Source: Thermotogota bacterium (GTDB taxonomy: Bacteria; Thermotogota; Thermotogae; Petrotogales; Kosmotogaceae). From it: a stretch of DNA of 34,479 nucleotides. Where the stretch lies: contig QNAR01000001.1 in the NCBI GenBank assembly GCA_003643975.1, forward strand, positions 1-34,479. The letters run 5' to 3'. Shown piece after piece: positions 92 to 15,918 of the stretch; position 1 is the stretch's first letter; each line of letters opens with the position of its first letter. Made by a program: the position numbers and the translations under genes. The notes below the pieces were generated by a model. That model made no database searches and was not told the DNA's origin. It saw only the letters and a list, made by a program, of their open reading frames with translations.

Positions 92-1069
92 TCATTCCCC
101 AACAAGCTTCTTCTTGATCCTTATGTTACTTAAAGCAGCAGCAACGAGTATTATCCCTACAAATGCCTGATACCAATAAGCGGGAGCTCCAATGAGGATC
201 AGCCCGTTGTTGAGAGAAGCAAGAATTATACTACCCAGGAAGGCACCAAAGGCACTTCCATATCCACCTGTCATGAGTGTGCCACCTATAACGGCAGCGG
301 TGATTGCCTGAAGCTCCATTTCAACTCCAAGTGATGGATCTACAATACGGAATCTCGCAAAAGTGGCAATACCTGCAAGGCCCGCCATAAGACCACTTAT
401 CATGAACGTTGAGGTCTTGATTTTCCATGATTCTACTCCCATGGCATCAGCAACACTTGGATTCCCCCCGCTGGCTGATATCCAGTTTCCATAACGTGTC
501 CAGTCGAGAATGAAATAAAACAGGAAAGTGAATCCAACAAACCATAAACTTGACCAACGCATGTTGGGACCGAAACGGCCTCCAAAAATTTCTGCAATGA
601 ATTTTCCACTTGAAGGCAATAAAATAGGAAATCCCCCGGTAACAGCAAGAACAACCCCACGCCAGAACCATTGTGTTCCCAGCGTCGTTATGAACGATGG
701 AATACGCCCTTTTGTCGTAACAACACCATTAACAATTCCCTGGCCAGCGGCGAAAGCCAAAGCGATGATTACAGCCAGAATAGCTGGCACACCGTTTTTC
801 GCTAGTAGCGCAAAGATTATCGGCGTTAAGGCAAAGATCGAACCAACACTCAGGTCAAATTCTCCTGATATCATAACCAGGTTTATTCCCATCGTTACTA
901 AACCAAGTTCAGCAGCAACAGTAGAGATAGTAACCAGATTACCCAGCGATAAAAATTGTGGATTCATAATTCCAAAGATACCGAAAATTGCTACAAGAGA
1001 AACTACACCACCAACTTCTTTAAATCGCAGGTATTTCAGTATTAACGGTCCATTATTGTTTGTTGCCAC
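92..1069 (-). CDS. Sugar ABC transporter permease (RbsC/BPD_transp_2 family), probably for inositol
   Basis: Hydrophobic 325 aa with GEFDLSVGS, IPSFITTLG and ELQAITAAVIGGT motifs. GTG start with GGGAGA SD. Substrate inferred from operon. Confidence 0.92.
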   Translation of the reverse strand: MATNNNGPLILKYLRFKEVGGVVSLVAIFGIFGIMNPQFLSLGNLVTISTVAAELGLVTMGINLVMISGEFDLSVGSIFALTPIIFALLAKNGVPAILAVIIALAFAAGQGIVNGVVTTKGRIPSFITTLGTQWFWRGVVLAVTGGFPILLPSSGKFIAEIFGGRFGPNMRWSSLWFVGFTFLFYFILDWTRYGNWISASGGNPSVADAMGVESWKIKTSTFMISGLMAGLAGIATFARFRIVDPSLGVEMELQAITAAVIGGTLMTGGYGSAFGAFLGSIILASLNNGLILIGAPAYWYQAFVGIILVAAALSNIRIKKKLVGE

Positions 1070-1151: not shown

Positions 1152-2087
1152 TTAACGATAACCTTCTTTTACACTGTTTTCTACAGGGCCAACATTGTCC
1201 TTTGTAATAATGAAAGGTCCTGTTAGCACATCACCAATGGGAGAGAGACCATATTTTTTGTAGAAGTAAAGAAATTCCACTGCAAGATATCCCTGCAAGT
1301 ATTGCTGCTGATCAACAGTATATAGAACTTTTCCTTCTTCTATCCACTTGAGCATTTCTTCGGTAAGGTCAAAACCGCTTACCTTGACCTTTCCTTCAAG
1401 CCCCATGTCTTCTACCACGGTTACAGCTGGGAGTGTTCCTATAGGGCCAAGGGTGAAAATCATGTCGGTATCAGGATGTTTTCGCAGGTAACCTTCAAGA
1501 ACCGATACGCCTTTTGAAGGATCTACGGTAATATTCAATTTTTCGACAGGAATTCCTTTTGGACTGAGAGCATCCATTATACCCTTTGCCCTCATTTCCA
1601 TTCCAGCATGCCCTACTTCGTGAATTGCTATAACTGCGCGTTTAGGTGTGAATTGTGAGAGAACATACATTGCGCCATTGTATCCACCAAGATATTCGTT
1701 GTTTCCGATGTAAGCGATGTATGGAATTTTATCCAACCCTGTTCTTGGGTCTGGAACATTGATGGCGATGACCGGAATTCCGGAAGAGATCGCCCTTTTG
1801 AGAGGCTCTTCCACGGCGTTAACATCGGTTATTGTGACTATTAACCCATCTGGCTTCGCAGCAATGGCCGCGTTCAAATTATTAACGAAGGTTTGAAGAG
1901 AATACTTCACTGGTCCAAGATACGTTGCGTTCACTCCATATTTCTCAGCTGCATCATTCATGCCTTTCATCACGATTCCCCAGAATGGATCAGCAGGCCC
2001 TCCATGGGAAACCAGGTAGAAATTCATCTCTGCAAGTAAAAGACTCGAGCTAAGAACAACCAAAAGTATTACAAGAACTTTTTTCAT
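1152..2087 (-). CDS. Sugar ABC transporter substrate-binding protein (Peripla_BP_4 type), probably inositol-binding
   Basis: Signal peptide MKKVLVILLVVLSSSLLLA with no lipobox Cys. HGGPADPFW, GIPVIAIN and VDQQQYLQGY motifs. SD GGGAGG. Confidence 0.9.
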   Translation of the reverse strand: MKKVLVILLVVLSSSLLLAEMNFYLVSHGGPADPFWGIVMKGMNDAAEKYGVNATYLGPVKYSLQTFVNNLNAAIAAKPDGLIVTITDVNAVEEPLKRAISSGIPVIAINVPDPRTGLDKIPYIAYIGNNEYLGGYNGAMYVLSQFTPKRAVIAIHEVGHAGMEMRAKGIMDALSPKGIPVEKLNITVDPSKGVSVLEGYLRKHPDTDMIFTLGPIGTLPAVTVVEDMGLEGKVKVSGFDLTEEMLKWIEEGKVLYTVDQQQYLQGYLAVEFLYFYKKYGLSPIGDVLTGPFIITKDNVGPVENSVKEGYR

Positions 2088-2177: not shown

Positions 2178-3407
2178 TTAGCGGGGTTGAGAAATATCTT
2201 TGTCTATGATTTTTTTGAGTTCTTCAAAATCCGGCATGATTCGAGCAACACCAGAATCAACAGCGGCCCTGGCCACTGCGACGGCAACAGCTTTGCCTAC
2301 ACCCGGGTCAAATGCCCACGGAATGATCTTGTTCTCGTTGATTTCTGCATCAGGCAAAAACCCCGCCAGGGCATCCACGGCAGCGAGTTTCATTTCATCG
2401 TTTATATCTCTCGCTCTGACGGATAATGCGCCACGGAAAAGACCCGGGAAAACGAGTACATTGTTTATCTGGTTATTGAAGTCGGATCTTCCGGTTGCCA
2501 CGATTCTCGCACCTGCTTCCTTGGCCTCATCTGGATAAATCTCTGGAATGGGGTTTGCAACGGCAAAAACTATGGGATCCTTTGCCATAGACTTAACCAT
2601 GTCTTTATTGACAAGCCCGCCTATGGAAGTTCCGATAAACACATCAGCACCTCTTATGGCATCTTTGAGAGTTCCTGTAAGCCCTTCAGGATTTATCAAG
2701 AGAGCAATTTCTTCGTGAAAAGCATTTAACAGCGTTTCAGGATATTCTTTATTTAAAATACCGTTTTTATCGCATGCCACGATGTTCTTGACGCCAGCTG
2801 CAAGAAGCATTTTTATGATCGCTCCGCCAGCAGCACCTATCCCAACTGTTGCAACCTTGATCTCGCTTAGCTTCTTACCAGTTATTTTCAGTGCATTTTT
2901 CAAGGCAGCGAGTATTATAATAGCCGCTCCATGCTGGTCATCGTGAAAAACCGGAATATCAAGCTTTTCCCTGAGTGCTTTCTCAATGTAAAAACACTGT
3001 GGCGAGGCAATATCTTCAAGATTCACTCCGCCAAAAGTGGGGCTAACCGTTTCTACAAATTCCACTATCTTCTCAGGATCCTGTGTGTTTATACAAAGAG
3101 GGTAAGCGTCAACATTTGCAAATTCCTTGAACAATACCGCTTTTCCTTCCATAACAGGCAGTGCAGCTTCAGGTCCTATATTTCCAAGTCCCAGCACAGC
3201 TGATCCATCTGAGACGATCGCCACTGCATTCCAGCGATTCGTGTAGTTGAAAACTTCATCAGGCTTTTTATGAATCAATCTGGATACATCTGCAACACCC
3301 GGTGTGTAGGCAAGGGCAAGCATCTTCTGATTATTAACCGGTACCCTGCTCTTGACTTCAAGCTTTCCTCTGAACTTTTTATGCAACTCTAATGCTTCGT
3401 TATTCAT
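2178..3407 (-). CDS. NAD(P)-dependent malic enzyme (small MaeB-N/YtsJ-like subfamily)
   Basis: AYTPGVA, SDGSAVLGLGNIG, PVMEGKAVLFK, NLEDI, FHDDQHG, GIGAAG and NQINNVLVFPG motifs. Confidence 0.93.
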   Translation of the reverse strand: MNNEALELHKKFRGKLEVKSRVPVNNQKMLALAYTPGVADVSRLIHKKPDEVFNYTNRWNAVAIVSDGSAVLGLGNIGPEAALPVMEGKAVLFKEFANVDAYPLCINTQDPEKIVEFVETVSPTFGGVNLEDIASPQCFYIEKALREKLDIPVFHDDQHGAAIIILAALKNALKITGKKLSEIKVATVGIGAAGGAIIKMLLAAGVKNIVACDKNGILNKEYPETLLNAFHEEIALLINPEGLTGTLKDAIRGADVFIGTSIGGLVNKDMVKSMAKDPIVFAVANPIPEIYPDEAKEAGARIVATGRSDFNNQINNVLVFPGLFRGALSVRARDINDEMKLAAVDALAGFLPDAEINENKIIPWAFDPGVGKAVAVAVARAAVDSGVARIMPDFEELKKIIDKDISQPR

Positions 3408-3420
3408 TTCAATCCCTCCA

Positions 3421-4434
3421 TCAAATCAATTCGGCAATCTTCACCGAACGATTTTCCTTAGCTGAAATGTCAGCAGCTCTGGCAACGAGGATTGAATAGT
3501 ATCCAGCCTCTACGCCAGCAGAAACGTCCTTATCTTCAAGAACGGATTCAACAAAAGCCCGAATTTCGTTGGCAAAAGACTGCATGTAGCGTTGAGGAAA
3601 GTAGTACAAAGGCTTATCGCTACAAACCGCAGCTTCTGTGCTCACAATGACGTTGGTTTCTCTATCGTTCTCGGCCCGTGCGCTACCTTTCGAACCAAAT
3701 ACTTCTACTCTTTGGTCGTATCCATAGGTGGTTTTTCTACTGACATCAATCGCACAAATCGCACCGTTTTCCATCTTCAATATGGCATAGGCGGTATCGA
3801 AATCTCCCGCTTCGCCTATTCTGGGGTCAAGGAGTACACTGCCACCAGCGTAAACTTCGACTACTTCTGACCCCGTTAAAAACCTTGCAGTGTCAAACTC
3901 ATGGATCATGAAATCGAAGAAGATGCCACCGGATTTCTTCACGAATTCTATATCGGGCAGGTGGGGATCTCTTGAAGTCGTTCTGATCAAATGAATTTCA
4001 CCGAGTTCGCCAGAATCTATAAAGTCTTTGACCTTTCTAAAGTTATGATCAAAGCGCCTATTAAAGGCAATCTGGATTTTAACGCCGGTGTTTTTTAGGT
4101 TTTTATAAAGCTCTCTGGCCGTTTCCAGATTATGTGCAAGGGGCTTTTCCATAAAAACATGTTTTTTTGCTTTAACAGCCGCTTTTAACATTTCACCATG
4201 TAATGTAGTTGGAGATGCGATAACCACGGCGTCTATCTCGGGATCTTCTAAAACATCCTGCCAATTGGCCGTGATTTCGAAGTCGCCCAAACGTTCAGCC
4301 CACTTCTTTGTTTCATCAACCCGCGGATCTGCCAGTGTTTTGACCTTGGCTTCCGGCACGTGCTGAATGAGGTTAGTTGTGTGAATCCTTCCCAATCTTC
4401 CCAACCCTATGACACCTATCCTCAAAGTTTCCAC
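3421..4434 (-). CDS. iolG: Inositol 2-dehydrogenase family (Gfo/Idh/MocA), second paralog
   Basis: GVIGLGRLG, EKPLA, FNRRFD, SRDP, DFMIHEFD and YGYDQRVEVFG motifs. Start moved from TTG 4455 (ORF track) to GTG 4434, which has SD AGGAGA upstream. Confidence 0.85.
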   Translation of the reverse strand: METLRIGVIGLGRLGRIHTTNLIQHVPEAKVKTLADPRVDETKKWAERLGDFEITANWQDVLEDPEIDAVVIASPTTLHGEMLKAAVKAKKHVFMEKPLAHNLETARELYKNLKNTGVKIQIAFNRRFDHNFRKVKDFIDSGELGEIHLIRTTSRDPHLPDIEFVKKSGGIFFDFMIHEFDTARFLTGSEVVEVYAGGSVLLDPRIGEAGDFDTAYAILKMENGAICAIDVSRKTTYGYDQRVEVFGSKGSARAENDRETNVIVSTEAAVCSDKPLYYFPQRYMQSFANEIRAFVESVLEDKDVSAGVEAGYYSILVARAADISAKENRSVKIAELI

Positions 4435-4451
4435 CGAATCATCTCCTGTTC

Positions 4452-5468
4452 TCAAAGAACTTCTTCGAGTTTTACTGGCCTATTCTCTTTAGCCGAGATC
4501 GTGGCAGCTTTGGCAATGACTATGGCCATCAACCCATCATGACCCGACACCGGAACTTCCTTATCTTCAATCAAGCTATCTATAAAATCTTTCATTTCAT
4601 CCTCAAATGATTGCATATATCTTTCAAGGAAGAAGTAAAGTGGCTTGTCACTTGCAACACACTCTTCATTACTGAGTATGACGTTTGTTTCGGTGTCATT
4701 TTCAGCCCGGGCACTCCCTTTTGAACCGAAGACTTCCACACGTTGGTCATAGCCATAGGCTGCTTTTCTGCTGTTGTCTATTATGCAGGTTGCTCCACTT
4801 CTGAATTTCAAAACAGATACAGCGGTATCGTAATCACCGGCATCACCAATTGTGGGATCTATGAGTACGCTTCCAAAGGCACAAACTTCAACGACTTCGT
4901 CTCCGGCAAGGTAACGAGCCATATCGAAATCGTGAATAGTCATATCCATGAAAATGCCACCAGAAACCTTTACGTATTCAATGGGTGGTGGGGCGGGGTC
5001 TCGTGATGTGATATTCACTATATGTACTTCTCCGATTTTTTCATCTTCAACAAGCTTTCTTACTTTCCTGAAATTATGGTCAAAGCGTCTGTTGAAACCT
5101 ATCTGAAGTTTTACCCCTTCTTCTGTTACAACTTCAAGCGCTTTTCTCGTTTTTTCCAGGTCCATATCGATGGGCTTTTCACAGAAAATATCTTTCTTCG
5201 CCCTTGCTGATGCGATTATCAGATCAGCATGAGTGTTGGTAGGCGAGCAGATGATCACCGCATCCACTTCGGGATTATCAATCACATCTTCAGGATCGGT
5301 CACAACGTTGTTTATTCCAACGGAATCAGCCCAGGCTTTGGTTTCTTCAAATCTCGGGTCACAAATTGTTATAACTTCCGCTCTTTCGACCTTTTGAACG
5401 AGATTTTTTGCGTGAATCCTTCCTATCCTGCCAGCTCCTATTACACCAACCTTGATTTTTTTATCCAT
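4452..5468 (-). CDS. iolG: myo-Inositol 2-dehydrogenase
   Basis: GVIGAGRIG, CEKPID, GFNRRFD, SRDP, DMTIHDFD and YGYDQRVE motifs. Adjacent to iolE. ATG 5468 preferred over GTG 5477 because GGAGTG is well spaced from it. Confidence 0.92.
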   Translation of the reverse strand: MDKKIKVGVIGAGRIGRIHAKNLVQKVERAEVITICDPRFEETKAWADSVGINNVVTDPEDVIDNPEVDAVIICSPTNTHADLIIASARAKKDIFCEKPIDMDLEKTRKALEVVTEEGVKLQIGFNRRFDHNFRKVRKLVEDEKIGEVHIVNITSRDPAPPPIEYVKVSGGIFMDMTIHDFDMARYLAGDEVVEVCAFGSVLIDPTIGDAGDYDTAVSVLKFRSGATCIIDNSRKAAYGYDQRVEVFGSKGSARAENDTETNVILSNEECVASDKPLYFFLERYMQSFEDEMKDFIDSLIEDKEVPVSGHDGLMAIVIAKAATISAKENRPVKLEEVL

Positions 5469-5480
5469 CTTCTTCACTCC

Positions 5481-6380
5481 CTAAAATCCGAGAATCTCTT
5501 TCAGATAGGCACGGGCTTTTTTCGCATATTCGAGAGGAGGGGCTATTTTTGGATCCTGTTCCGCTTCAACGACAATCCAGCCTTTGTAATTAATGTCATC
5601 AAGTGCTTTTGCTATCGGCTTGAAATCGATCATGCCATCTCCTGGAACGGTAAAAACGCCCTGCTTAACGGAATATAAAAAGCTCCAATCCTCCTGGAAA
5701 GAGCGCTTCATGACGTCCTCACGCAGATCTTTGAAATGAACGTGCTTTATACGTGAGCCGTAATCTTTTATCATTTGTAAAGGGTCTCCGCCTGCAAAAA
5801 CCAGGTGACCGGTATCGAGAAGCAAATAAACCAGATCAGGGTCAGTGCTTTCCATAAGCCTTCTGACTTCTTCATAGGTCTGAACCCCTGTTCCCATGTG
5901 GTGATGGAACACTATTTTCATATCTTTCTCAGCTGCAAGTTTTCCAAGCTCATGGAGCCCTTTGACGAGTTTCCCCCAATCTTCATCGCTGAAAATTGGC
6001 TTTTGGCTGTGCAATGGTGTATTCATAAGGCCTTGAACGCTTTTTCCGCTTTCGGATACGACTATCACTTTTGCACCCATAGCGTGAAGAAAATCCCTGT
6101 GCTTGATAAAAGCAGCAATAGTTTCTTCGGGATCTTTGGTGGTAAAGTAACTACTGAACCATGCACTTGCTATCTGCAATCCTCTGGGCTCAAGGGCCTT
6201 TTTAAGAACCATGGGATCACGTGGAAATTTGTTGCCAACTTCGCTACCTTCAAAGCCTGCCTCAGCCATTTCATCGATACACTGTTCAAAGGGAATATCA
6301 CCGCCAAGTTCAGGCATGTCATCATTGGTCCAAGCAATTGGAGCAATTGCCAATTTGATGTCTTCTCTTCTGATACCCAT
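5481..6380 (-). CDS. iolE: myo-Inosose-2 (2-keto-myo-inositol) dehydratase
   Basis: APIAWTNDDMPELG N-terminus plus HHHMGT, LLDTGH, HVHFKD, FTVPGDG and WIVVEAEQDP motifs. Confidence 0.95.
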   Translation of the reverse strand: MGIRREDIKLAIAPIAWTNDDMPELGGDIPFEQCIDEMAEAGFEGSEVGNKFPRDPMVLKKALEPRGLQIASAWFSSYFTTKDPEETIAAFIKHRDFLHAMGAKVIVVSESGKSVQGLMNTPLHSQKPIFSDEDWGKLVKGLHELGKLAAEKDMKIVFHHHMGTGVQTYEEVRRLMESTDPDLVYLLLDTGHLVFAGGDPLQMIKDYGSRIKHVHFKDLREDVMKRSFQEDWSFLYSVKQGVFTVPGDGMIDFKPIAKALDDINYKGWIVVEAEQDPKIAPPLEYAKKARAYLKEILGF

Positions 6381-6394
6381 CTAATTCCCTCCAG

Positions 6395-8278
6395 TCACCA
6401 CTTGCGGGCGTGTTTTTTCATATATTCGCTGTCTTCCATATATGCTTTTTTCACTGAATCGCTTTCGGATACCTCTGCAACGCCAACTCGCCACCATGAT
6501 TCATATCCACCGGACTGTGTGCCGGGTAAGACTTTCACGTCTATGAGGACGCTTGTGGATTCTTTTCTCGCTTCTTCCAAAGCTTTTCGAAGTTCATTTT
6601 CGTTACGCGCTGTGTAGGCTTTTGCACCTAAGCTCTTCGCTATTCCAGCAAAGTCTATCTGTATATAGTCATCATCGAGTTTTCCTGTTTCTTTCGAACG
6701 ATACCTCAGCTCATTGCCAAATCCTTTTGCGCTTCCATGGGATTTTTGAAGGCTGTTTATGCTCTGGAATCCACCGTTGTCGAGTATAATGACGTTTATC
6801 TTCATTCGTTCCTGCAAACTGGTAAGAAACTCAGAATGAAGCATAAGGAAACTCCCGTCACTCAAAAGGGCGTAGGCTTCCTTTTCAGGTTCGGCCATTT
6901 TCACGCCGAAAGTACCTGAAACTTCATAGCCCATACAGGAAAAACCGTATTCCATGTGATATGACTTGATACCTTTGCATCGCCATAGCCTGTGTAAATC
7001 CCCCGGAAGGCTACCAGCGGCTGCTACAAAAACGTCATTTTCAGTTGCGAAATCATTTATTATGCCAAGCGCTGTGGTTTGTGGGAGCCCTTTTTCAGAT
7101 TCCAGGTGATAAAGCCTGTCCACTTCCCTGTCCCATTCTTCTTTAAGTGTTTTTAGCTCTTCTTTTGAATAATTCGACCTATATCCTTCCTTCTTCAAAC
7201 CTTCCATCAGGACTTCAAGACCGAGCATGGCATCTGCGTTGAGGTGTTCGGCATCCATCTTCAGACCATCGAAATTATTGACATTTATGCTCAGGATTTT
7301 CACATTGGGGTTCTGAAAAGCGGTTTTTGAAGCTGTTGGGAAATCCATAAGCCTTGTACCAACTGCGATTATTAAATCCGCCTCCTTGGCGAGTTTGTTG
7401 GCAGCAAGGGTCCCTGTGGTGCCAACTCCACCCATGTTGAGCGGGTGATCCCACAGCATCGCTCCTTTTCCAGCCTGCGTGAAGGAAACAGGAATGTTAA
7501 AAGCTTCAGCAAATTCCCGTAAGGTATCCACTGCTTGAGAATAATGAACACCACCGCCAGCGATTATCAGCGGCTTTTTCTTAGTCTTAATGAGCCTTAG
7601 TGCTCTCACAAGAGCGCTCTCTGATGGTGGGCGCCTATCTATATGGTGTACTCTTTTCTCAAAGAATTCCACTGGATAATCATAGGCTTCACCCTGCACA
7701 TCTTGTGGAAGGGCAAGGGTAACAGCTCCTGTTTCTGCGGGGTCGGTGAGAACCCTCATAGCGTTTAGCGCTGCAGTAATTAGCTGTTCAGGTCTTTCTA
7801 TTTTGTCCCAGTATTTGCTCACAGCTTTGAAAGCGTCATTAGCCGTGATTTTTGGATTGTAAGGCATTTCTATTTGCTGAAGCACCGGGTCAGGCTGCCT
7901 ATCGGCAAAGATATCTCCCGGGAGCAAAAGCACAGGAATTCTGTTTACAGTTGCAGTAGCAGCACCTGTCACCATATTGAGTGCTCCGGGACCTATCGAA
8001 CTTGTACAGGCAAAGATTTCAAGCCTGTTTTTCTGTTTGGCGAAAGCAGTAGCAGCGTGAACTATCCCCTGCTCATTGTGTCCCTGATAAAATTTAAGAG
8101 AGAGGTCTTTCATGTTTTCAAGGCCTTCGCCAATGCCAAGGAGGTTGCCGTGGCCAAAAATCCCATATACTCCTTTGACAAATTTGTGTTCTTCCCCATC
8201 AAATTCGACATACTGGGCATCAAGGAATTTCAACAAAGCTTGAGCAGTAGTTAAGCGTATTGTTTTCAAATCATTCAC
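6395..8278 (-). CDS. iolD: 3D-(3,5/4)-trihydroxycyclohexane-1,2-dione acylhydrolase (ThDP-dependent, ring opening)
   Basis: RLTTAQAL, GIFGHGN, TSSIGPG, PDPVLQQ, AAGSLPGDLHRLW, YHMEYGFSCMGYE and C-terminal SWWRVGVAEVS motifs. Confidence 0.96.
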   Translation of the reverse strand: MNDLKTIRLTTAQALLKFLDAQYVEFDGEEHKFVKGVYGIFGHGNLLGIGEGLENMKDLSLKFYQGHNEQGIVHAATAFAKQKNRLEIFACTSSIGPGALNMVTGAATATVNRIPVLLLPGDIFADRQPDPVLQQIEMPYNPKITANDAFKAVSKYWDKIERPEQLITAALNAMRVLTDPAETGAVTLALPQDVQGEAYDYPVEFFEKRVHHIDRRPPSESALVRALRLIKTKKKPLIIAGGGVHYSQAVDTLREFAEAFNIPVSFTQAGKGAMLWDHPLNMGGVGTTGTLAANKLAKEADLIIAVGTRLMDFPTASKTAFQNPNVKILSINVNNFDGLKMDAEHLNADAMLGLEVLMEGLKKEGYRSNYSKEELKTLKEEWDREVDRLYHLESEKGLPQTTALGIINDFATENDVFVAAAGSLPGDLHRLWRCKGIKSYHMEYGFSCMGYEVSGTFGVKMAEPEKEAYALLSDGSFLMLHSEFLTSLQERMKINVIILDNGGFQSINSLQKSHGSAKGFGNELRYRSKETGKLDDDYIQIDFAGIAKSLGAKAYTARNENELRKALEEARKESTSVLIDVKVLPGTQSGGYESWWRVGVAEVSESDSVKKAYMEDSEYMKKHARKW

Positions 8279-9065
8279 CTCCGAAAGGCCATATGGAAGC
8301 GTCTTTTTCCGTTACCCACAGATGTTCCAGTTCAAAGGTAGGCACTGTATAAGGGTTACCATCAAGATGCCTTATGGCCCATATGTAATACATGGCGTAT
8401 CCCGGTGCACTTACCTGTGGATGAGAGAGATCATCAAGGATTTTCAGCGTATCACCATGCCTGATCTTATAAACATCCTCGCCCAACATCCCAAAGCCAA
8501 AGCCCTGCTCGGGAAAGAAGCGATAATGGTATATTTCAGGCTGAGGATGGTGGTGTGGCGGATAACTTGACCACTTGCCAGGGTAATTTACCACCTCTCC
8601 AAGCACCAGTTTGGCATCTGGGGCGTTGGTTACATCAAAAATAGTACGCACGATCCTCGTAGAAGTTTCGCGCATTGTGCCTTCGCCTCTGTGTTCTGAC
8701 CTGGTATCGTTCCCCTGATAAAGCCGACATTCAAAAACCGCATCATTTGTAGTTGCAAAAATTGCGATTTCTGCATTGGTTTTGGCCTCGATTTTTACCT
8801 CAGTGCTCATTGGAACATGCAGGCATACAGGTTCATTTTCCAAAAGAGAGTCTCTTTTTACCAGTTCTACCCTTCCATTCCATTCGAAAGATATTTCCCC
8901 TTTCATCAGCAGGAAAGCTCTTTCCTTTCCGGGCTGGCTTTTGTAGGTTTGTTGGCCCTTCAACAAAAGTAGACCAAAATCCATCATTGTATCTTTCTCT
9001 GATTCACCCTCCCGGGTTATTTCGTTAAAACCTTGTATGCGTTTCTTCGCTTTTAGCAAATACAT
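8271..9065 (-). CDS. iolB: 5-Deoxy-D-glucuronate isomerase
   Basis: LVLGEVVNYPGKWSSYPPHHH, EIYHYRF and HPQVSAPGYAMYYIW motifs. 8-nt overlap with iolD. Confidence 0.93.
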   Translation of the reverse strand: MYLLKAKKRIQGFNEITREGESEKDTMMDFGLLLLKGQQTYKSQPGKERAFLLMKGEISFEWNGRVELVKRDSLLENEPVCLHVPMSTEVKIEAKTNAEIAIFATTNDAVFECRLYQGNDTRSEHRGEGTMRETSTRIVRTIFDVTNAPDAKLVLGEVVNYPGKWSSYPPHHHPQPEIYHYRFFPEQGFGFGMLGEDVYKIRHGDTLKILDDLSHPQVSAPGYAMYYIWAIRHLDGNPYTVPTFELEHLWVTEKDASIWPFGGE

Positions 9066-9088: not shown

Positions 9089-10051
9089 TTATTTTCTTAA
9101 AAGGACATTTTTAACGCTGGCTGCTATATCCTGAGCTGTCATATTGAAGCGTTTCTTCAGGTAGTCAACATCTCCAACTTCGCCAAACAAATCTTTTACC
9201 CCCACTCTTTCAATGGGTACAGGGCACGTTTCAGCGACCACTTCGGCAACTGCAGAACCAAGGCCGTTATATATATTGTGGTTTTCGGCTGTCACAATTG
9301 CCCCGGTTTCAGATGCACATTTTTCAATGAGCTCTCTATCTATGGGTTTAATGGTAAAGATGTTAACTACTCTTGCATCAATGCCCTCACTTGCCAGCAA
9401 ATCAGCGGCATCAAGAGCTTCTGCCACCATGATTCCCGTGGCAATAATAGTGACATCTTTCCCTTCTCTGAGAACTATTCCTTTTCCAATCTCAAAACTT
9501 GAACCTTCTTCGAATACCCGTATTGTTGTTTTTCTCGAAATCCTCACGTAGAATGGTCCGTAAGAATAGGTTATGTCTTTTAGAAGGGCTTTCATCATTA
9601 CAGTATCAACAGGCTCTATAATCGTGATGGTAGGAATTCCCCTCACAAAGCCAATATCTTCCAAAGGCATATGAGTTCCACCGTTATATGCAGCGGTTAC
9701 TCCTGGATCTGTTGCCATCATCTTCACGTTTAGCTTGTTATAGGCTATGGAGATATATACCTGATCAAGAGCCCTTCTAGTGCTGAAACAAGCAAAGGTA
9801 TGAGTGAAGGGGATCTTGCCAGTGGCAGAAAGACCTGCGGCAATGCCCATCATATTGGCTTCCTGAACTCCCACGTTAATCGCTCTTTCAGGGAATTTTT
9901 CTAAAAATCTGTAAGTACCATTGGAATGCATCAAATCCGCATCGAGTACGATTATATTTGGATCACTCTTTGCAAACTCTATGAGCTGGTCGATATAGAC
10001 ATCTCTCATCATTACAGTGTCGGGTTTTCTCTTTTCAACGAGTTTGATCAT
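9089..10051 (-). CDS. Split transketolase, C-terminal (pyrimidine-binding + C-terminal domain) subunit
   Basis: VLDADL, NVGVQEANMMGIAAG, RALDQ, NGGTHM, TIKPID and AENH motifs. ATGA overlap with the N-subunit. Confidence 0.92.
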   Translation of the reverse strand: MIKLVEKRKPDTVMMRDVYIDQLIEFAKSDPNIIVLDADLMHSNGTYRFLEKFPERAINVGVQEANMMGIAAGLSATGKIPFTHTFACFSTRRALDQVYISIAYNKLNVKMMATDPGVTAAYNGGTHMPLEDIGFVRGIPTITIIEPVDTVMMKALLKDITYSYGPFYVRISRKTTIRVFEEGSSFEIGKGIVLREGKDVTIIATGIMVAEALDAADLLASEGIDARVVNIFTIKPIDRELIEKCASETGAIVTAENHNIYNGLGSAVAEVVAETCPVPIERVGVKDLFGEVGDVDYLKKRFNMTAQDIAASVKNVLLRK

Positions 10052-10902
10052 CTAAGATCCCTTTCTTTCTCTTCCCATTCTTTTTGTAACGCGCTTATGG
10101 CATCGTTGATCTGCTCCTCATTAAACTTCATATGGTGGTTCAGCTCTATGCCTTCTGCAAAAGTGCAGCCTTTTCCTTTTATTGTGTGTAAAACAATTAC
10201 AGAGCTTTTCCCTTTTGTTTCCTTTGCTCTTTGTATTGCTTCATGTATCTGCATGACATTATGCCCATCAACATCCTGAGCGTGCCAGCCAAATTCCTCC
10301 CATTTTTTCCTCAAATCCCCAAGTGGATTGATATTGTCAATGTATCCATCAAGCTGTTGCTTGTTGTAATCGATGAACACTATGAGGTTATCGAGTCCGG
10401 CATTTCCAGCGAATAATGCACCTTCCCAAACCTGTCCTTCCTGGCATTCTCCATCGCCTAAAAGAACATAAACATAGTTTTCCTTGTTGTCCATCTTATG
10501 CCCCAGGGCAATTCCTATACCCATAGAAATACCCTGTCCGAGGGAGCCTGTGGACATATCTATACCCGGGGTATGATTTCTGTCAGCATGACTCGGTAAA
10601 TCCGTTCCCCCTCGATTCAGCGTTTTCAACCATTCCATGGGGAAAAAACCCTTCAAAGCCAGCGTTGCATACAAAGAAGGGCCTGCATGACCCTTTGACA
10701 TCACAAACCAATCACGGTCTTCCCATTTTGGGTTCTTGGGATCGTATCTCATAACTTTGCCATAAAGCACTGCGAGCAGTTCAACAATTGACATCGCGCC
10801 ACCAATGTGGCCAAATCCGAGATATCCGAGCTCCTTCAAGGTTTCAATGCGAATTTTTGTTGCGAATATTTCCAGTTCTTTCATTTCGTTGTCTGTGAGC
10901 AT
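10048..10902 (-). CDS. Split transketolase, N-terminal ThDP-binding subunit
   Basis: GHIGG, DRDWFVMSKGH, STGSLGQG, the GDGE...N ThDP motif and TIKGKG. Confidence 0.93.
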   Translation of the reverse strand: MLTDNEMKELEIFATKIRIETLKELGYLGFGHIGGAMSIVELLAVLYGKVMRYDPKNPKWEDRDWFVMSKGHAGPSLYATLALKGFFPMEWLKTLNRGGTDLPSHADRNHTPGIDMSTGSLGQGISMGIGIALGHKMDNKENYVYVLLGDGECQEGQVWEGALFAGNAGLDNLIVFIDYNKQQLDGYIDNINPLGDLRKKWEEFGWHAQDVDGHNVMQIHEAIQRAKETKGKSSVIVLHTIKGKGCTFAEGIELNHHMKFNEEQINDAISALQKEWEEKERDLR

Positions 10903-10908
10903 CAGAGT

Positions 10909-12171
10909 TTATTCACCTCGCTTGATTTTAGGGAGTGTAGAAGCTCCAAGGGGAAATACGGCGTATTTTGCGTTCATCCCCTTTTCACCAAAAGCTTCTT
11001 TTACAGCTTCAGTAGGGTTATCAAAGCATCTTATGCCAACTAACTTTTCTTCTGCGAATTCTTTATTGGTAACCAGGAAAATTTCCGATGTTTTTAACAC
11101 GACTTTGGATATTGCAGCTGCTTTGTGGCCACCCAGGACAAAATTTTCTTTCAGGCCTTCAACCAGTTCCGTAGGCTTTTTTCCAGAGGTAATCCATTCT
11201 TTGAAAGTTTTACTTCCGTATTTCTCTGGACATTCGGCAAAAAGAATCATTCTACCACCGGGTTTCAAAACCCCGGCGCAGTTATCTATCGCCTTTTGCG
11301 CTTGATAGAGGTTGATATCCTTTGGATATCCTCCAGCGCTTACAATGACAATGTCAAGAGGCTCTTTAATGGGAACAAGCCCACTTTTTTCAAGGCGTTC
11401 AGCCAATATCCTGTGTGCCTTGATCCAATCACCAGAAGCAGCATCGATCACTCTATGATGTTCGCCCACAACCACGTTCAAGACGAAATCAATTCCCAGA
11501 AAACTCACACCCTCTTCGATATCCATGCGTACAGGATTGTCGTAAATAGAAGCCGCTTCAGCACCATCTTCCATCATGTGGCTGTGATTTTGTCTGATCG
11601 TTTTGGCAGAAGCGACACCGGGTAGAATGGCTTTGGCACCACCGGAAAATCCGGCAAAATAATGAAATTCCACGTTGCCAAGGCAAATTCTGAAATCAGC
11701 CTCAACAACAGGGCGAAAAAATTCTACTCTCGTCCCCCGGGTGGTTGTGCCCACATAAACCGTATTGTCCACGTCATGATTCAAAACTCTAATTCTTTCG
11801 TAGATACTTTTGCCAACCGCCTTTTGCAATTCATCTTCCGTCATCTTTCTGTGAAGGCCTAAGGCAATTACAATTGTTATATCCTCATCATTCACACCTG
11901 CTTTATTCAGCCTGTCAATGACATGAGGCAAAAGAACATCACTGGGGCATGGCCGGGTCAAATCGCTGGTCACTATCACCACTTTCTGTCCTGGCTTAAC
12001 TAGCTGTTCAACTCTTTCCGTGCCCACCGGATGATTTAAGGCTTTTTCAACAAGTGCATTTTCTGAATCGGTGATGGATTGCCGTTGGGGGTGATACTCA
12101 CCAACAAATCCTTTCTCAGGTAATTCAACTTTTACAGTCGATTCACCATATGGAAGTTCAAAATTGAGCAT
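10909..12171 (-). CDS. larA: LarA-family nickel-pincer-dependent 2-hydroxyacid racemase/epimerase (predicted malate racemase)
   Basis: SDLTRP, ALGLHR, NHD, FHYFAGFSGGAK, NHS, GGYPKDINLYQAQKA and GGHKA motifs. Family assignment is firm; the substrate is inferred from context. Confidence 0.88.
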   Translation of the reverse strand: MLNFELPYGESTVKVELPEKGFVGEYHPQRQSITDSENALVEKALNHPVGTERVEQLVKPGQKVVIVTSDLTRPCPSDVLLPHVIDRLNKAGVNDEDITIVIALGLHRKMTEDELQKAVGKSIYERIRVLNHDVDNTVYVGTTTRGTRVEFFRPVVEADFRICLGNVEFHYFAGFSGGAKAILPGVASAKTIRQNHSHMMEDGAEAASIYDNPVRMDIEEGVSFLGIDFVLNVVVGEHHRVIDAASGDWIKAHRILAERLEKSGLVPIKEPLDIVIVSAGGYPKDINLYQAQKAIDNCAGVLKPGGRMILFAECPEKYGSKTFKEWITSGKKPTELVEGLKENFVLGGHKAAAISKVVLKTSEIFLVTNKEFAEEKLVGIRCFDNPTEAVKEAFGEKGMNAKYAVFPLGASTLPKIKRGE

Positions 12172-13436
12172 TATTTTTCAACCTTCCTGTACGCCTTTTT
12201 CAGAGCCTTAATAAGAGGAAGCTCTTTGCCAGATAAGAAGCGTACCATAGCTCCTCCAGCAGTACATATATAGCCAAACTTCTTATTGGCATTTTCTACG
12301 AGCTTCTGCGCAGCGGAGACACTATCTCCGCCTCCGATAACGCTATAACCCGGAGCTTCAGCAATGGCATTCCATATCTCTCTTGTCCCCTTTTCAAAAA
12401 GCGGGTTTTCATACGCTCCAGCGGGCCCGTTTATAAAAATCGTTCCTGCTTTCATGATTTCACCCTTATACAGCTCTATGGTCTTTTCACCTATATCAAG
12501 GAAAAGAGCATTATCAATTGGAAGCTCGTTGATAGAGCATTCCACACGTTTTCCATCTTTTTCATATGCAAAGTCTACAGGATTGAGAAACCTGTCGCCA
12601 AAGCGAGCAAGATAATCTTTGGCAGGTTCAATGAAGGCATCGAGAGAACGATCGAAAATGAATTTTTCCTGCTGCTTGCCGACCGATCTTCCCATAGCCA
12701 TTTGCATGACTATTCCCGTCACACCACAGGTCAAGATTTTATCAGCAGTGCCATTTTCGAGGACCTGTTTCATCATTCCGAAAGCATCGGATATTTTCAA
12801 CCCTCCAAGAACAAAAACAGCGGGCTTTTCAGGGCTTTCCATCACTTTTGTTAATGCTGAAAGCTCTTTGAAGAGAAGCCTGCCTGCCGCCGTAGGCAAA
12901 AGCTCTTCGAAAGCGACCATGGAAGGTGAGTTCCTATGTGCTGCCGAAAAAGCGTCGTTTACATAGTAATCTGCAAGAGGGGCAAGATTACGAACTATGT
13001 AGGTATTCAACATCTCATGCGCTTCGAGCTTTACAGCGTTCTCAAAGGTTGAAACTTCTTCTGTTAGATATCTAACATTTCCCAGCAGTACCGCTTCGCC
13101 TGGCTTCAGGCTTTTCACCATTTCCTGCGCAGCCGGCCCGGCAACATCATCGATGTATTTCACGGGTTTTCCAAGCTTTTCTGACAACTTTTCAGCATGC
13201 TCAGCCATGGAAATGAGATTATGGTAATCGAGCGTATCTCCCTGATGTGCTAGTATAGCCAGCTTTGCCCCTTTTTCCATTAGTTCCCTGATTGTAGGTA
13301 TACTTTGATTTATTCTATTTTCATTGGCTATTTTTTTTGTTTTCGGATCGAGAGGGGAGTTGATATCAATCCTCAGGATAACTGTCTTATCATGGAAGTT
13401 AAAGTCATCGAGAGTATTTATCAAAATCTCTCGCAT
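12171..13436 (-). CDS. pgk: Phosphoglycerate kinase family, archaeal-like, with an altered substrate site
   Basis: RIDINSP, AHQGD (canonical H[LQ]GR), LLGNVRY, VNDAFSAAHR, LGGLK, NGPAG, GGGD and TAGGA motifs. 1-nt TAATG overlaps on both sides. Confidence 0.9.
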   Translation of the reverse strand: MREILINTLDDFNFHDKTVILRIDINSPLDPKTKKIANENRINQSIPTIRELMEKGAKLAILAHQGDTLDYHNLISMAEHAEKLSEKLGKPVKYIDDVAGPAAQEMVKSLKPGEAVLLGNVRYLTEEVSTFENAVKLEAHEMLNTYIVRNLAPLADYYVNDAFSAAHRNSPSMVAFEELLPTAAGRLLFKELSALTKVMESPEKPAVFVLGGLKISDAFGMMKQVLENGTADKILTCGVTGIVMQMAMGRSVGKQQEKFIFDRSLDAFIEPAKDYLARFGDRFLNPVDFAYEKDGKRVECSINELPIDNALFLDIGEKTIELYKGEIMKAGTIFINGPAGAYENPLFEKGTREIWNAIAEAPGYSVIGGGDSVSAAQKLVENANKKFGYICTAGGAMVRFLSGKELPLIKALKKAYRKVEK

Positions 13437-14458
13437 TACTTATGCCTCCCTATTTTTAGGTATTTGTTCGTAAGCCCAACGGCTTCCAGCCTATCCGCCT
13501 GCATTTCCATAGCGGCTCTGATACCATCAATCGTCTCGGGAATAACCACGGACTCTTGTGGAATATGCAGGGAATATATGAGGTGGTCTTCAAAAGGCGT
13601 AACTGTTTCTTCCCATATGGAAATTTCGTACATATCGCCGCGCGGATTTCCCAAATCACGTGCATAGCGGAATATGGAAGCGTTACCCAGAAAACCATCT
13701 TCTATTTTTACCAGCCTGATTCTTGGGTGTTCTCTGAATATCTCAATGGCCTCTTCTTTGGAAACTTTCTTTTTGGGTTTGGCAAAAACGGTGATGAAAT
13801 GACCATGGGTAACGGGAGTGTGCACCAAAACGCCGGTGGCCTTCACATGAGGCATTATGAGCATTAAGTCAACCGCTTGATGGTTAGGAACCGGATCAAC
13901 TTTCAGCGCATTAGTAAGACCTCTGTGGTAATCTCCCGGATCAGCAACACGCCTCACAATATGAATCATCGCGGATTCCACTCCAACAGCTCTATCTAAG
14001 CAATCTACAGAACGAATTAAACCAGTGGTATTGCATGAAGTAAGTTTCAAGAATTGTTTTCCTATACCTTTTTCATAATTTGCATATCCGTGAAAAAACA
14101 CATCGGCAACGCTTGTTTTTTCTCCACCCTGGAAAATAGCTTTTTTGCCGTATTTTTCGTAAAGGACTTTGTTTTTCGCACCTACGCCAGCATTGGTTGC
14201 ATCAAGAACTATATCCACTTTTTTAATCAGGTCTTCCAGATTTCCAGAAATAGGAATGCCAGCTTTTTCAACCTTTTCCCGGTTTTCCTCAACGGAAAGG
14301 TAAAAATCGTAGGGCATTCCCTTCTCTTTTAGAGCCCTAACGGCAAGCGTCGGAGCAACATCCGCTACACCAACAAGTTCCATGTCTTCTTGAAGTGCAA
14401 CTCCATCAGCGAGACGTTGGCCTATCACACCATAACCAACTACACCAACTTTTACCAT
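13436..14458 (-). CDS. gap: Type II (archaeal-class) glyceraldehyde-3-phosphate dehydrogenase homolog, first gene of the operon
   Basis: GYGVIGQRLAD, IFQGGEK, catalytic SCNTTGL, IVRRVADP, RDLGNPRGDMYE and QESVVIPETIDGIRA all match class II GAPDH. SD GGAGG. Confidence 0.9.
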   Translation of the reverse strand: MVKVGVVGYGVIGQRLADGVALQEDMELVGVADVAPTLAVRALKEKGMPYDFYLSVEENREKVEKAGIPISGNLEDLIKKVDIVLDATNAGVGAKNKVLYEKYGKKAIFQGGEKTSVADVFFHGYANYEKGIGKQFLKLTSCNTTGLIRSVDCLDRAVGVESAMIHIVRRVADPGDYHRGLTNALKVDPVPNHQAVDLMLIMPHVKATGVLVHTPVTHGHFITVFAKPKKKVSKEEAIEIFREHPRIRLVKIEDGFLGNASIFRYARDLGNPRGDMYEISIWEETVTPFEDHLIYSLHIPQESVVIPETIDGIRAAMEMQADRLEAVGLTNKYLKIGRHK

Positions 14459-14856: not shown

Positions 14857-15918
14857 TTACTGTCTTGGGATAGTTCCTACTACGTTATCTACAAACCAAT
14901 CCATGCTGAGAAGCTCACTATCTGAAGGAATATCTCCAGCGGGAACTCTGAGTTTGCCCTCCTGATCATACAGTGGACCAACAAATGGATGGAATGTTTC
15001 ACTGATAATAGCTTCTTTGAAAACGGAAACGAGTTTTTTAACCGTATTGGGAACAAGATCACTTATGTCTAAATCCACAACGCCGTCGGCCATACCACCC
15101 CAGTATTGCTCGCTCTTCCATGTTCCAGCCATAACCTCTTTTATAACCCTTTCATAATAAGGTCCCCAATTCCATACAGGCGCACCAAGATATGACTTGG
15201 GCGCGAATTTTTCCATGTCGCTGTTATAGCCAATTGAGTAAACGCCGTATTCTTGTGCAGCTTGTTGGGCAGCCGGTGAATCCTGACCCTGCGCTATTAC
15301 ATCCGCGCCGATATTCAATAAAGAAATCGCCGCTTCCTTTTCCAGTGCAGGGTCATACCAAGAATTCACCCAGATAACATGAACTTTCGCAGCTGGATTT
15401 ACATATTCTATGCCAAGGGCAAAGGCGTTTATTCCCCTCACGACCTCTGGAATAGGATAAGCAGCTACATAGCCTATGATGTTGCTCTTTGTCATGATTC
15501 CTGCTATAAGCCCTGAAAGGAAATCCGGCTCGTAAATCCTCCCAAAATATGTGCCAACATTATTGGCGGTTTTATAACCTGAGCAGTGCATGAAAATAGT
15601 TTTTGGATATTTTTTGGCAACGTTTATAACCGAGTCCATATAACCGAAGCTCGTCGCAAAGATCAAATCATATCCTCTCTGAGCGTAGCTTCTTATTACA
15701 CTTTCAGATTCAGCACCTTCAGGCACGCTTTCAATGAAATCAGTTTTGATGGCATCGCCGAATACCTTTTCTACGTACTGTCTTCCAAGATCATGTGCAT
15801 AAGTCCAGCCAGCATCGCCAACCGGTCCAACATAAACATACGCCACTTTCAGTGCTTTAGCAGACAGGAACATTGAAGCAAGCAAAATCGCTATAACCAA
15901 AATCGTGCGTCTTTTCAT
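14857..15918 (-). CDS. BMP/PnrA-family ABC substrate-binding protein (nucleoside/purine type)
   Basis: YVGPVGDAGWTYAH, IFATSFGY, PIPEVVRGINAFALG, WYDP and GYNSDM motifs. Signal peptide without Cys. Confidence 0.9.
   Translation of the reverse strand: MKRRTILVIAILLASMFLSAKALKVAYVYVGPVGDAGWTYAHDLGRQYVEKVFGDAIKTDFIESVPEGAESESVIRSYAQRGYDLIFATSFGYMDSVINVAKKYPKTIFMHCSGYKTANNVGTYFGRIYEPDFLSGLIAGIMTKSNIIGYVAAYPIPEVVRGINAFALGIEYVNPAAKVHVIWVNSWYDPALEKEAAISLLNIGADVIAQGQDSPAAQQAAQEYGVYSIGYNSDMEKFAPKSYLGAPVWNWGPYYERVIKEVMAGTWKSEQYWGGMADGVVDLDISDLVPNTVKKLVSVFKEAIISETFHPFVGPLYDQEGKLRVPAGDIPSDSELLSMDWFVDNVVGTIPRQ

What the first reader, a model, noticed from the sequence alone, without database searches (positions are those of the whole stretch)
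13236..13250. PGK homolog has Arg->Asp in the 3-phosphate-binding basic patch (HQGR -> HQGD)
Seen: residues 63-67 read AHQGD (GAT codon at 13238-13236), and LLENxR reads LLGNVR, while DIN, AAHR, GGGD and TAGGA are retained. Established: the H-x-G-R Arg binds the 3-phosphate of 3-phosphoglycerate. Inference: a charge reversal here argues for a kinase acting on a substrate without that phosphate, such as D-malate/malyl-phosphate.
Basis: partly seen in the sequence, partly recalled or inferred. Interest (0 to 1): 0.82.

Follow-up and report, generated by a model that had tools for sequence, protein, structure and literature searches.

The report
PGK paralogue that likely makes D-malate
This bacterium carries a second, archaeal-type copy of the glycolytic enzyme phosphoglycerate kinase that lacks a phosphate-gripping arginine and sits among inositol- and malate-handling genes, so it likely makes ATP from D-malyl phosphate in an undescribed ending to inositol breakdown, which no assay has yet tested.

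Summary
It marks a widespread paralogue clade: 119 of 120 best homologues read HQGD, an archaeal-type GAPDH lies beside it in 70 of 73 loci, and 48 of 50 genomes also hold a second PGK (this one too). Best reading (0.68): a transketolase cuts the inositol intermediate 2-deoxy-5-keto-D-gluconate to (R)-malic semialdehyde; the GAPDH copy makes D-malyl-1-phosphate; this kinase gives D-malate plus ATP; a malate racemase plus malic enzyme, or D-malate dehydrogenase, finish. In 19 sampled iolD-positive Clostridia, 11 had IolC, 4 this module and 4 a transaldolase, with no overlap. Corrections: the Asp is not required, since a sister clade has Ser or Gly in the same operons; LLGNVR is not diagnostic; HQGD is not confined to iol-TK-LarA clusters. 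Against: no assay, and no LarC/LarE found in this genus. I found no paper describing it; this scan noted the module before on other DNA.

The parts
13236..13238 (-). Asp67 codon (GAT), at the position of Arg65 of canonical PGK
13224..13238 (-). Rebuilt loop D67-T-L-D-Y71; D/E70 and Y71 are invariant in both non-Arg clades
13041..13052 (-). Clade-specific insertion S129-T-F-E132 (F131 and E132 invariant in 73 of 73 and 44 of 44); AlphaFold pLDDT under 50 at 130-134
13071..13088 (-). LLGNVR (117-122); R122 kept, G119 not diagnostic
12171..13436 (-). Archaeal-type PGK paralogue, 421 aa; predicted D-malate 1-kinase
13436..14458 (-). Type II (archaeal) GAPDH paralogue, PSHHGPD changed to PNHQAVD; stop overlaps the PGK start (TAATG); predicted phosphorylating malic-semialdehyde dehydrogenase
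10909..12171 (-). LarA-family racemase, best match LarAH6 malate racemase (493 bits, cut-off 500); closest structure Mar2 6D6Z
10048..10902 (-). Split transketolase, N-terminal subunit
9089..10051 (-). Split transketolase, C-terminal subunit; Asp at human His416 and Asn at human Asp424
8271..9065 (-). IolB/KduI-like isomerase (TIGR04378 95 bits, below the 205 cut-off)
6395..8278 (-). IolD (over cut-off)
5481..6380 (-). IolE (over cut-off)
4452..5477 (-). IolG inositol 2-dehydrogenase (over cut-off)
3421..4455 (-). Second IolG (over cut-off)
2178..3407 (-). Malic enzyme family (cofactor not assigned)
1152..2087 (-). Sugar ABC binding protein, best match rhizopine/inositol type (below cut-off)
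92..1069 (-). Sugar ABC permease

Best explanation
The protein is an accessory archaeal-type PGK paralogue that likely acts as a D-malate 1-kinase, running D-malyl-1-phosphate + ADP to D-malate + ATP as the energy-conserving step of a predicted kinase-free lower inositol pathway. Shown: the gene order, the family assignments, the retained catalytic residues, the loss of the Arg65 equivalent, and the co-occurrence pattern. Inferred: IolG/E/D/B make 2-deoxy-5-keto-D-gluconate (DKG). Read from its CH2OH end DKG has the D-threo C3/C4 pair that transketolase donors need, so the split TK would move the two-carbon unit to an aldose phosphate and release (R)-3-hydroxy-4-oxobutanoate (malic semialdehyde). 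This is glyceraldehyde-3-phosphate with CH2-COO- in place of CH2-O-PO3. The GAPDH-II copy would oxidise it with Pi to D-malyl-1-phosphate and this kinase would release D-malate and ATP. The racemase plus malic enzyme, or in relatives a D-malate dehydrogenase, would take it to pyruvate. R41, H64, R122 and R168 would still hold a monoanionic carboxylate, while the third phosphate-binding Arg is dropped and the D/S67-Y71 loop and FE insertion reshape the pocket. In other bacteria the same pair would take the same aldehyde from 4-amino-3-hydroxybutyrate by transamination.
For: Own genome holds a canonical SHLGR PGK-TIM beside a type I GAPDH. 48 of 50 HQGD genomes have a further PGK match; of 40 fetched, 39 read H-x-G-R/K and 1 is cut before the motif. 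Only 3 of 30 relatives have the HQGD copy, and the same 3 are the only ones with iolD. In 73 GTDB loci: GAPDH-II 70, LarA 35, malic enzyme 25, tartrate/D-malate dehydrogenase (TTC) 6, iol genes 28, TK 27, iol plus TK 22; LarA and TTC never share one of these loci. Three of four neighbouring LarAs tested pass the LarAH6 malate-racemase cut-off; LarAH6/Mar2 is an assayed malate racemase (PMC7583248 passages). 25 of 28 iol-locus genomes lack IolC over cut-off, as do this genome and G458, G460, G482. Unselected Clostridia sample, 19 iolD-positive genomes: 11 IolC, 4 this module, 4 a transaldolase in the operon, no overlap (Fisher p=0.018 for IolC versus HQGD; kin not independent). A GABA-type transaminase lies upstream in non-iol loci and an MttB-family methyltransferase in L030; carnitine-derived malic semialdehyde is oxidised to D-malate in Acinetobacter (PMC11353897 passages). 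7 of 12 genomes whose loci lack a malate gene have TTC over cut-off elsewhere. D24, N26, R41, H64, R122, H167, R168, D217 and GGA are invariant in 73 of 73, K214 in 71 of 73; the fold is PGK (pLDDT 91.9, TM 0.85 to 2CUN).
Against: No assay, docking or coordinates were available. No LarC or LarE was found in this genome (83.5% complete) or in the complete genomes G458 and G460, or in G482; G460 and G482 carry TTC in the operon, but this genome and G458 have none, so the D-malate sink in this genus is incomplete as far as I can see. 21 of 73 loci have no iol, TK, malate or transaminase gene within reach (many contigs are short). G460 has both LarA and TTC, so their exclusivity is not absolute. 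The DPG/NGGTH transketolase type is a wider family: 14 of 19 sampled copies are not within 1.5 kb of this PGK. LarAH6-type racemases and DmlA-type dehydrogenases also act on tartrate. From recall, not from a call: yeast R65Q/S/A mutants stay active on 3-phosphoglycerate (only the 1QPG title was seen; searches did not find the data). The window IolB is below its family cut-off. The TTC count has no lineage-matched control.
Confidence: 0.68

Rival explanations
1. The pair is a broader C4 hydroxy-diacid module whose main product is tartrate: TK cuts 5-keto-hexonates (5-ketogluconate, fructuronate, tagaturonate) to tartaric semialdehyde, which goes to tartrate plus ATP; malate is one of several products.
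For: L100 has UxaE tagaturonate epimerase and a Zn-dehydrogenase ahead of GAPDH-PGK-TK-ME-LarA with no iolB/D/E. TTC is the tartrate dehydrogenase family. Malate racemases epimerise tartrate weakly (PMC11770544 passages). 5 of 73 loci have TK without iol genes.
Against: In this window IolD, IolE and an IolB-like gene give the 2-deoxy compound, hence malate. Malic enzyme accompanies the module in 25 of 73 loci. LarAH62 prefers D-malate about 60-180-fold over tartrates.
Confidence: 0.12
2. The kinase acts on another non-phosphorylated hydroxy acid (glycerate, lactate, 3-sulfolactate, a tetronate) or on succinate, with the GABA-type transaminase feeding succinic semialdehyde.
For: Loss of the Arg only says the distal phosphate is probably absent. 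The upstream transaminases pass TIGR00700, GABA transaminase. Dehalococcoidales loci carry Fe-alcohol dehydrogenase, 2-hydroxyacid dehydrogenase and aldehyde ferredoxin oxidoreductase.
Against: D24 and N26, which bind the 2-hydroxyl (PMC7729029 passage), are invariant. R122 and R168 are kept, suggesting a distal anion. The transaminase loci L023, L040 and L041 also carry malic enzyme and LarA, which succinate would not need. No sulfoglycolysis genes were recognised among the neighbours I scanned.
Confidence: 0.1
3. It is still a 3-phosphoglycerate kinase: a laterally spread archaeal-type GAPDH/PGK isoenzyme pair that handles the triose phosphate flux from the transketolase step.
For: Four of five basic-patch residues are kept. 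The position tolerates Lys. Yeast R65 mutants remain active (recalled). An independent HQGD occurs among Arg-type archaeal PGKs (P0239).
Against: Canonical GAPDH and PGK are present in the same genomes. The pair travels with D-malate sinks and also occurs without any transketolase. Arg65 binds the 3-phosphate and bridges to Asp218 in the closed form (PMC7729029 passages). It would leave the four-carbon TK product and the malate genes unexplained.
Confidence: 0.08

Closest known systems
Archaeal-type phosphoglycerate kinase (P. horikoshii 2CUN; EC 2.7.2.3)
   Same: Best PDB match by sequence (E 4.9e-87) and fold (38% identity, TM 0.85); catalytic and nucleotide motifs kept.
   Different: Arg/Lys65 lost, DTLDY loop and STFE insertion added; accessory second copy in bacteria, in a catabolic operon; separate clade.
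Canonical myo-inositol pathway (IolG-E-D-B-C-J-A, Bacillus subtilis type)
   Same: IolG (twice), IolE and IolD over cut-off, IolB-like gene, sugar ABC transporter.
   Different: No IolC over cut-off in this genome or three relatives; TK, GAPDH-II, PGK paralogue, LarA and malic enzyme stand in its place. IolJ and IolA were not searched by family.
Acinetobacter carnitine route: malic semialdehyde dehydrogenase plus D-malate dehydrogenase (PMC11353897)
   Same: Same predicted intermediate and product, and relatives use the same TTC/D-malate dehydrogenase family as sink.
   Different: There an ALDH-type enzyme oxidises the aldehyde in one step with no ATP; here a GAPDH/PGK-type couple would conserve ATP.
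Sulfoglycolysis variants sulfo-EMP, sulfo-SFT and sulfo-TK (named in PMC10755693 legend)
   Same: The same three ways of cutting a ketose analogue whose distal anion is not phosphate: kinase plus aldolase, transaldolase, transketolase; the 19-genome sample shows the same three-way split for inositol.
   Different: Carboxylate rather than sulfonate substrate; sequence membership of the TK in the SqwGH family was not tested.
Engineered malate kinase from aspartate kinase LysC (PMC5481828)
   Same: A malate/malyl-phosphate couple with a phosphorylating semialdehyde dehydrogenase.
   Different: Synthetic, L-malate, C4 carboxyl, amino-acid-kinase fold. That 2017 paper says malate kinase activity had not been reported. 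The present enzyme would be natural, D-specific, C1, PGK fold.

Membership tests
Phosphoglycerate kinase fold/family (PF00162) | Full-length profile match and two-domain PGK fold | tested here: met
   368.7 bits over positions 1-379; TM 0.85 to 2CUN
Phosphoglycerate kinase fold/family (PF00162) | Catalytic and nucleotide residues (R38, K215/219 region, D218, GGGD, GGA equivalents) | tested here: met
   R41, D217, D371 and G394-G395 in 73 of 73; K214 in 71 of 73, R in 2
Canonical 3-phosphoglycerate kinase (EC 2.7.2.3) | Complete basic patch for the 3-phosphate: H62, R65, R122, R170 | tested here: not met
   H64, R122 and R168 kept; R65 equivalent is Asp in 73 of 73; role from PMC7729029 passage
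Canonical 3-phosphoglycerate kinase (EC 2.7.2.3) | Is the genome's housekeeping PGK | tested here: not met
   Second canonical PGK in own genome and a further PGK match in 48 of 50 others; absent from 27 of 30 relatives
Canonical 3-phosphoglycerate kinase (EC 2.7.2.3) | Activity on 3-PG / 1,3-BPG | not testable with these tools
   needs an assay
LarAH6 malate racemase (neighbour gene) | NCBIfam NF052593 cut-off of 500 bits | tested here: inconclusive
   Window 493; relatives 561, 557, 536 pass and 475 fails
LarAH6 malate racemase (neighbour gene) | Nickel-pincer cofactor biosynthesis (LarC, LarE) in the genome | tested here: not met
   Not found in G000, G458, G460, G482; LarC found in 30 of 40 other module genomes; LarB not searched
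Canonical iol pathway | IolG, IolE, IolD over cut-off | tested here: met
Canonical iol pathway | IolC kinase | tested here: not met
   Best 183 bits against cut-off 300 in G000 (83.5% complete); none over cut-off in complete G458 and G460
Canonical iol pathway | IolJ aldolase and IolA dehydrogenase | not tested
   Not in the operon; no genome-wide family search run
Type II (archaeal) GAPDH (neighbour gene) | Profile match and SCNT catalytic motif | tested here: met
   NF003251 408 bits against 185; LTSCNTT
Type II (archaeal) GAPDH (neighbour gene) | PSHHGPD motif of the three solved enzymes whose alignments were shown | tested here: not met
   PNHQAVD here; PxHQxxD in 66 of 72 neighbours, 6 unread; the phosphate-binding role of these His residues is recalled, one search did not confirm it
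Sulfofructose transketolase SqwGH | Sequence membership and sulfoglycolysis gene context | not tested
   No SqwGH sequence was compared; no such family appeared

The most novel reading that the evidence does not exclude
The PGK family contains a widespread clade of natural D-malate 1-kinases that, with repurposed type II GAPDHs, form a portable module turning (R)-malic semialdehyde into D-malate plus ATP. The module completes an undescribed transketolase route of inositol fermentation, one of three interchangeable endings (kinase-aldolase, transaldolase, transketolase), and also serves anaerobic breakdown of demethylated carnitine without making trimethylamine.
Probability: 0.55. Interest if true: 0.85.

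Novelty: new variant of a known kind. Interest (0 to 1): 0.72.

Why it matters
If the reading holds, it adds a new substrate-level phosphorylation and a natural malate kinase, an activity that had to be engineered in 2017 (PMC5481828). It would explain part of why iolG/E/D/B often occur without iolC/J (noted in PMC13617567) and give LarAH6 malate racemases a source of D-malate. Surveys that require iolC as a core gene would miss these organisms. The test is cheap: one purified enzyme and commercial D-malate. The useful sequence marker is loss of Arg65 with D/E70-Y71 and F131-E132, not the Asp alone.

Tried and rejected
Sequencing or assembly error: rejected. HQGD as a sole housekeeping PGK: not found; the two exceptions among 50 are MAGs, G042 (one match) and G036 (two HQGD copies). 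LLGNVR as a specificity sign: rejected. Asp67 as the essential change: rejected by the Ser/Gly sister clade. The transketolase His-to-Asp change as module-specific evidence: weakened, since 14 of 19 sampled copies lie elsewhere. I looked for a new conserved basic residue replacing Arg65 and found none among the clade-specific positions (that alignment was unreliable around residues 200-300 and was redone for clade members). The AlphaFold model gave no coordinates to inspect, so no pocket geometry or docking was done. The promoter scan upstream of the GAPDH gene gave 3 sites against 2.2 expected, uninformative. Literature searches found no description of the module; searches did not retrieve R65 mutant kinetics; 45 did not retrieve archaeal GAPDH anion-site residues; 47 did not retrieve the split-TK paper; one gave one paper listing His416 and Asp424 as active-site residues only. 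Term searches in PMC13311982, PMC12482443 and PMC9430895 found no transketolase, transaldolase or malate. Desguin 2020 Table S1 lists malic enzyme but not PGK or GAPDH for LarAH group 6 (part 1 of 2 read). No complex prediction or read mapping was run. Left out of counts: G003 and G012 (seed genomes) from the 21 iolD-positive genomes; G153 and G395 were not scored by the tool; 7 Methanobrevibacter loci (L076-L082) from the 73-locus count.

Full report
Observation. The minus strand at 13250-13236 reads gca cat cag gga gat, A63-H64-Q65-G66-D67 of a 421-aa ORF at 13436-12171. Against solved structures D67 aligns with Arg in T. maritima PGK and with Lys in P. horikoshii and S. aureus PGK. A review passage states that pig PGK Arg65, Arg122 and Arg170 bind the 3-phosphate, His62 the bridging oxygen and Asp23/Asn25 the 2-hydroxyl, and that Arg65 and Arg170 bridge to Asp218 on closure (PMC7729029, passages). 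Only the Arg65 equivalent is lost here. The AlphaFold model is an ordinary PGK fold (pLDDT 91.9; TM 0.85 to 2CUN).

It marks a clade. 119 of the 120 listed homologues read HQGD; the nearest named ones are from Kosmotoga at 87%. Among 149 cluster representatives the position is R 113, K 3, D 14, S 5, others 9, gap 5. In a quick tree of 104 selected rows (SH-aLRT only), 39 of 41 non-Arg sequences group at 94, as an HQGD-TLDY branch (100) and an HQGS/G branch (99); P0122 falls just outside, and P0239 is a separate HQGD among Arg-type archaeal PGKs. Clade-specific positions cluster in the N-domain: N40, D67, T68, L69, Y71, N73, L74, Y123, S129, F131, E132, V135, M142. G119 of LLGNVR is not diagnostic.

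It is not the housekeeping enzyme. This genome has a canonical SHLGR PGK-TIM fusion beside a type I GAPDH. Of 50 HQGD genomes searched, 48 have a further PGK match. I fetched 40 of these: 39 read H-x-G-R/K and one is cut before the motif. Among 30 relatives all have the canonical copy, 3 have the HQGD copy, and the same 3 are the only ones with iolD.

Anatomy. The minus-strand run is GAPDH-II, PGK, LarA, TK-N, TK-C, iolB-like, iolD, iolE, iolG, iolG, malic enzyme, ABC binding protein, permease, with overlapping or near-adjacent stops and starts at most junctions. The complete same-genus genome G458 has the same order. IolC is not found over cut-off here (83.5% complete) or in G458, G460 and G482. 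In 73 GTDB loci, many cut short by contig ends, the neighbours are GAPDH-II 70, LarA 35, malic enzyme 25, TTC 6, iol genes 28, TK 27, iol plus TK 22, GABA-type transaminase 4 at my 50% threshold, and none of the iol, TK, malate or transaminase genes in 21. The window LarA scores 493 against a cut-off of 500 for the LarAH6 malate racemase family; three of four relatives tested pass. LarAH6/Mar2 is an assayed malate racemase (PMC7583248, passages and supplement 2 part 1).

Mechanism (inferred). IolG/E/D/B give 2-deoxy-5-keto-D-gluconate. By Fischer-projection reasoning (my own, from textbook configurations) it has the D-threo pair that transketolase needs, and the released fragment is the D-configured 2-hydroxy aldehyde OHC-CHOH-CH2-COO-, a carboxylate analogue of glyceraldehyde-3-phosphate. 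Oxidative phosphorylation by the GAPDH-II copy and transfer to ADP by this kinase would give D-malate, not L-malate. That is what the neighbours handle: a malate racemase with malic enzyme, or a TTC/D-malate dehydrogenase. These two sinks share none of the 73 loci (hypergeometric p=0.016, kin not independent), though G460 has both. A second entry to the same aldehyde fits the non-iol loci: GABA-type transaminases directly upstream (L023, L026, L028, L040, L041) and an MttB-family methyltransferase with TTC in L030 suggest 4-amino-3-hydroxybutyrate from carnitine. Carnitine-derived malic semialdehyde is oxidised to D-malate in Acinetobacter (PMC11353897, abstract and passages). My rough bookkeeping gives about 3.3 ATP per inositol to acetate against 3 for the IolC route; this is arithmetic, not a result.

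Independent test. In an evenly drawn sample of 399 scored Clostridia genomes, 21 had iolD. After removing two seed genomes, 11 of 19 had IolC over cut-off and none of them the HQGD kinase; 4 had the HQGD module, each with GAPDH-II, TK and LarA, and no IolC; the other 4 had a transaldolase-family gene and an aldehyde dehydrogenase in the iol operon (two of these four are 97% identical and not independent). Fisher p=0.018 for IolC against HQGD. Among 28 genomes with iol genes at the HQGD locus, 25 lack IolC. Of 5 such genomes with no TK at the locus, 3 have the same TK type elsewhere, one a related variant, one none. The three-way split mirrors the sulfo-EMP, sulfo-SFT and sulfo-TK pathways (named in PMC10755693, legend).

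Correction to the charge-reversal argument. The HQGS/G sister clade (54 metagenome loci) occurs with GAPDH-II in 35, a malate gene in 36, iol genes in 16 and TK in 4. In 44 full-length members position 67 is Ser 40 or Gly 4, with D68, E70, Y71, F131 and E132 invariant. So the shared signature is loss of the Arg, an acidic residue at 70, Y71 and the FE insertion. The partners also differ from their canonical forms: GAPDH PSHHGPD becomes PxHQxxD in 66 of 72, and the TK has Asp at human His416 and Asn at Asp424 in 26 of 30. The phosphate-binding roles of those His residues are recalled; one search shows only that His416 and Asp424 are active-site residues. This TK type is not specific to the module.

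Against. Nothing was assayed. LarC and LarE were not found in this genome, in G458, G460 or G482, and this genome and G458 lack TTC, so how this genus disposes of D-malate is open; LarC was found in 30 of 40 other module genomes. 21 of 73 loci give no hint of substrate, although 7 of 12 genomes without a malate gene at the locus have TTC elsewhere (no lineage control). Tartrate is a live alternative in loci such as L100 (UxaE). From recall, yeast R65 mutants keep activity on 3-PG.

What is known. Five searches aimed at the pathway (listings and abstract starts) and term searches in three inositol papers found no description. PMC5481828 (passages) says malate kinase activity was unreported in 2017. 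PMC13617567 (passages) notes that iolC and iolJ are more restricted than iolG/E/D/B. The Blautia schinkii and Megamonas papers were seen only as reference titles; subscription journals and bioRxiv supplements were not searchable and could hold a description. Earlier AI notes of this scan reach the same D-malate reading and the transaldolase variant on other genomes; I recorded my reading before opening them, and they are not evidence.

Verdict. The feature is real and is a good marker of a paralogous, probably non-glycolytic PGK clade. D-malate 1-kinase in a transketolase-type inositol pathway is the best explanation (0.68). New variant of a known kind; interest 0.72.

Noticed in passing
L095:7865-8941, L096:6913-7986, L097:7077-8150, L098:7997-9070: Transaldolase-family gene (PF00923) inside iol operons that lack IolC and the HQGD module, with an aldehyde dehydrogenase: a likely third, kinase-free way to cut DKG. 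Also noted by earlier scan reports.
   Followed up: partly
L099:8098-11139; L149-L200: Sister PGK clade HQGS/G-DIEY beside the same GAPDH-II, LarA, malic enzyme and iol genes; in G293 the LarA next to it is only about 195 aa.
   Followed up: yes
G000, G458 (whole genomes): LarA racemase present but no LarC or LarE found, and no TTC; cofactor salvage or D-malate excretion is open.
   Followed up: partly
L100:1677-11055: UxaE tagaturonate epimerase and a Zn-dehydrogenase head a GAPDH-II/PGK/TK/malic enzyme/LarA operon without iolB/D/E; possible hexuronate-to-tartrate variant.
   Followed up: no
L023, L026, L028, L040, L041 (about 5400-9000); L030:5618-15547; L034:1-2963: Sigma-54 activator plus GABA-type transaminase upstream of the pair; L030 has aldehyde ferredoxin oxidoreductase, MttB-family methyltransferase and TTC; L034 has a hydantoinase/oxoprolinase and a class III transaminase. 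Candidate anaerobic carnitine or 4-amino-3-hydroxybutyrate routes.
   Followed up: partly
L051, L054, L057: In Dehalococcoidales the pair is flanked by Fe-alcohol dehydrogenase and aldehyde ferredoxin oxidoreductase, with aconitase X and a fumarase subunit in L051/L054; substrate unexplained.
   Followed up: no
L243-L257: Split transketolases with DPG...NGGTH in place of HxG...EDGxSH form a wider family; 14 of 19 sampled copies are not beside this PGK, two sit by ThDP-enzyme genes.
   Followed up: partly
P0239: An independent HQGD (HQGDPGEG, no loop signature) nested among Arg-type archaeal PGKs; context not available.
   Followed up: no
window:14805-14824 (-): Terminator-like hairpin after the BMP-family lipoprotein gene (14857-15918), separating it from the operon.
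   Followed up: no
window:27501-33162 (+): Ordinary-looking ribose-type operon: LacI regulator, ABC ATPase, permease, binding protein, pfkB kinase, RbsD/FucU.
   Followed up: no
window:22888-27386 (+): DUF6062 gene, MoxR-type AAA ATPase and two genes with no Pfam match at 1e-10 (436 and 466 aa).
   Followed up: no
window:19281-22881: 372-aa and 370-aa ORFs with no NCBIfam or Pfam match at my thresholds (peptidase-like and acyltransferase-like by eye, unverified) next to an MFS sugar transporter; an MMPL-family gene lies at 16960-19149.
   Followed up: no
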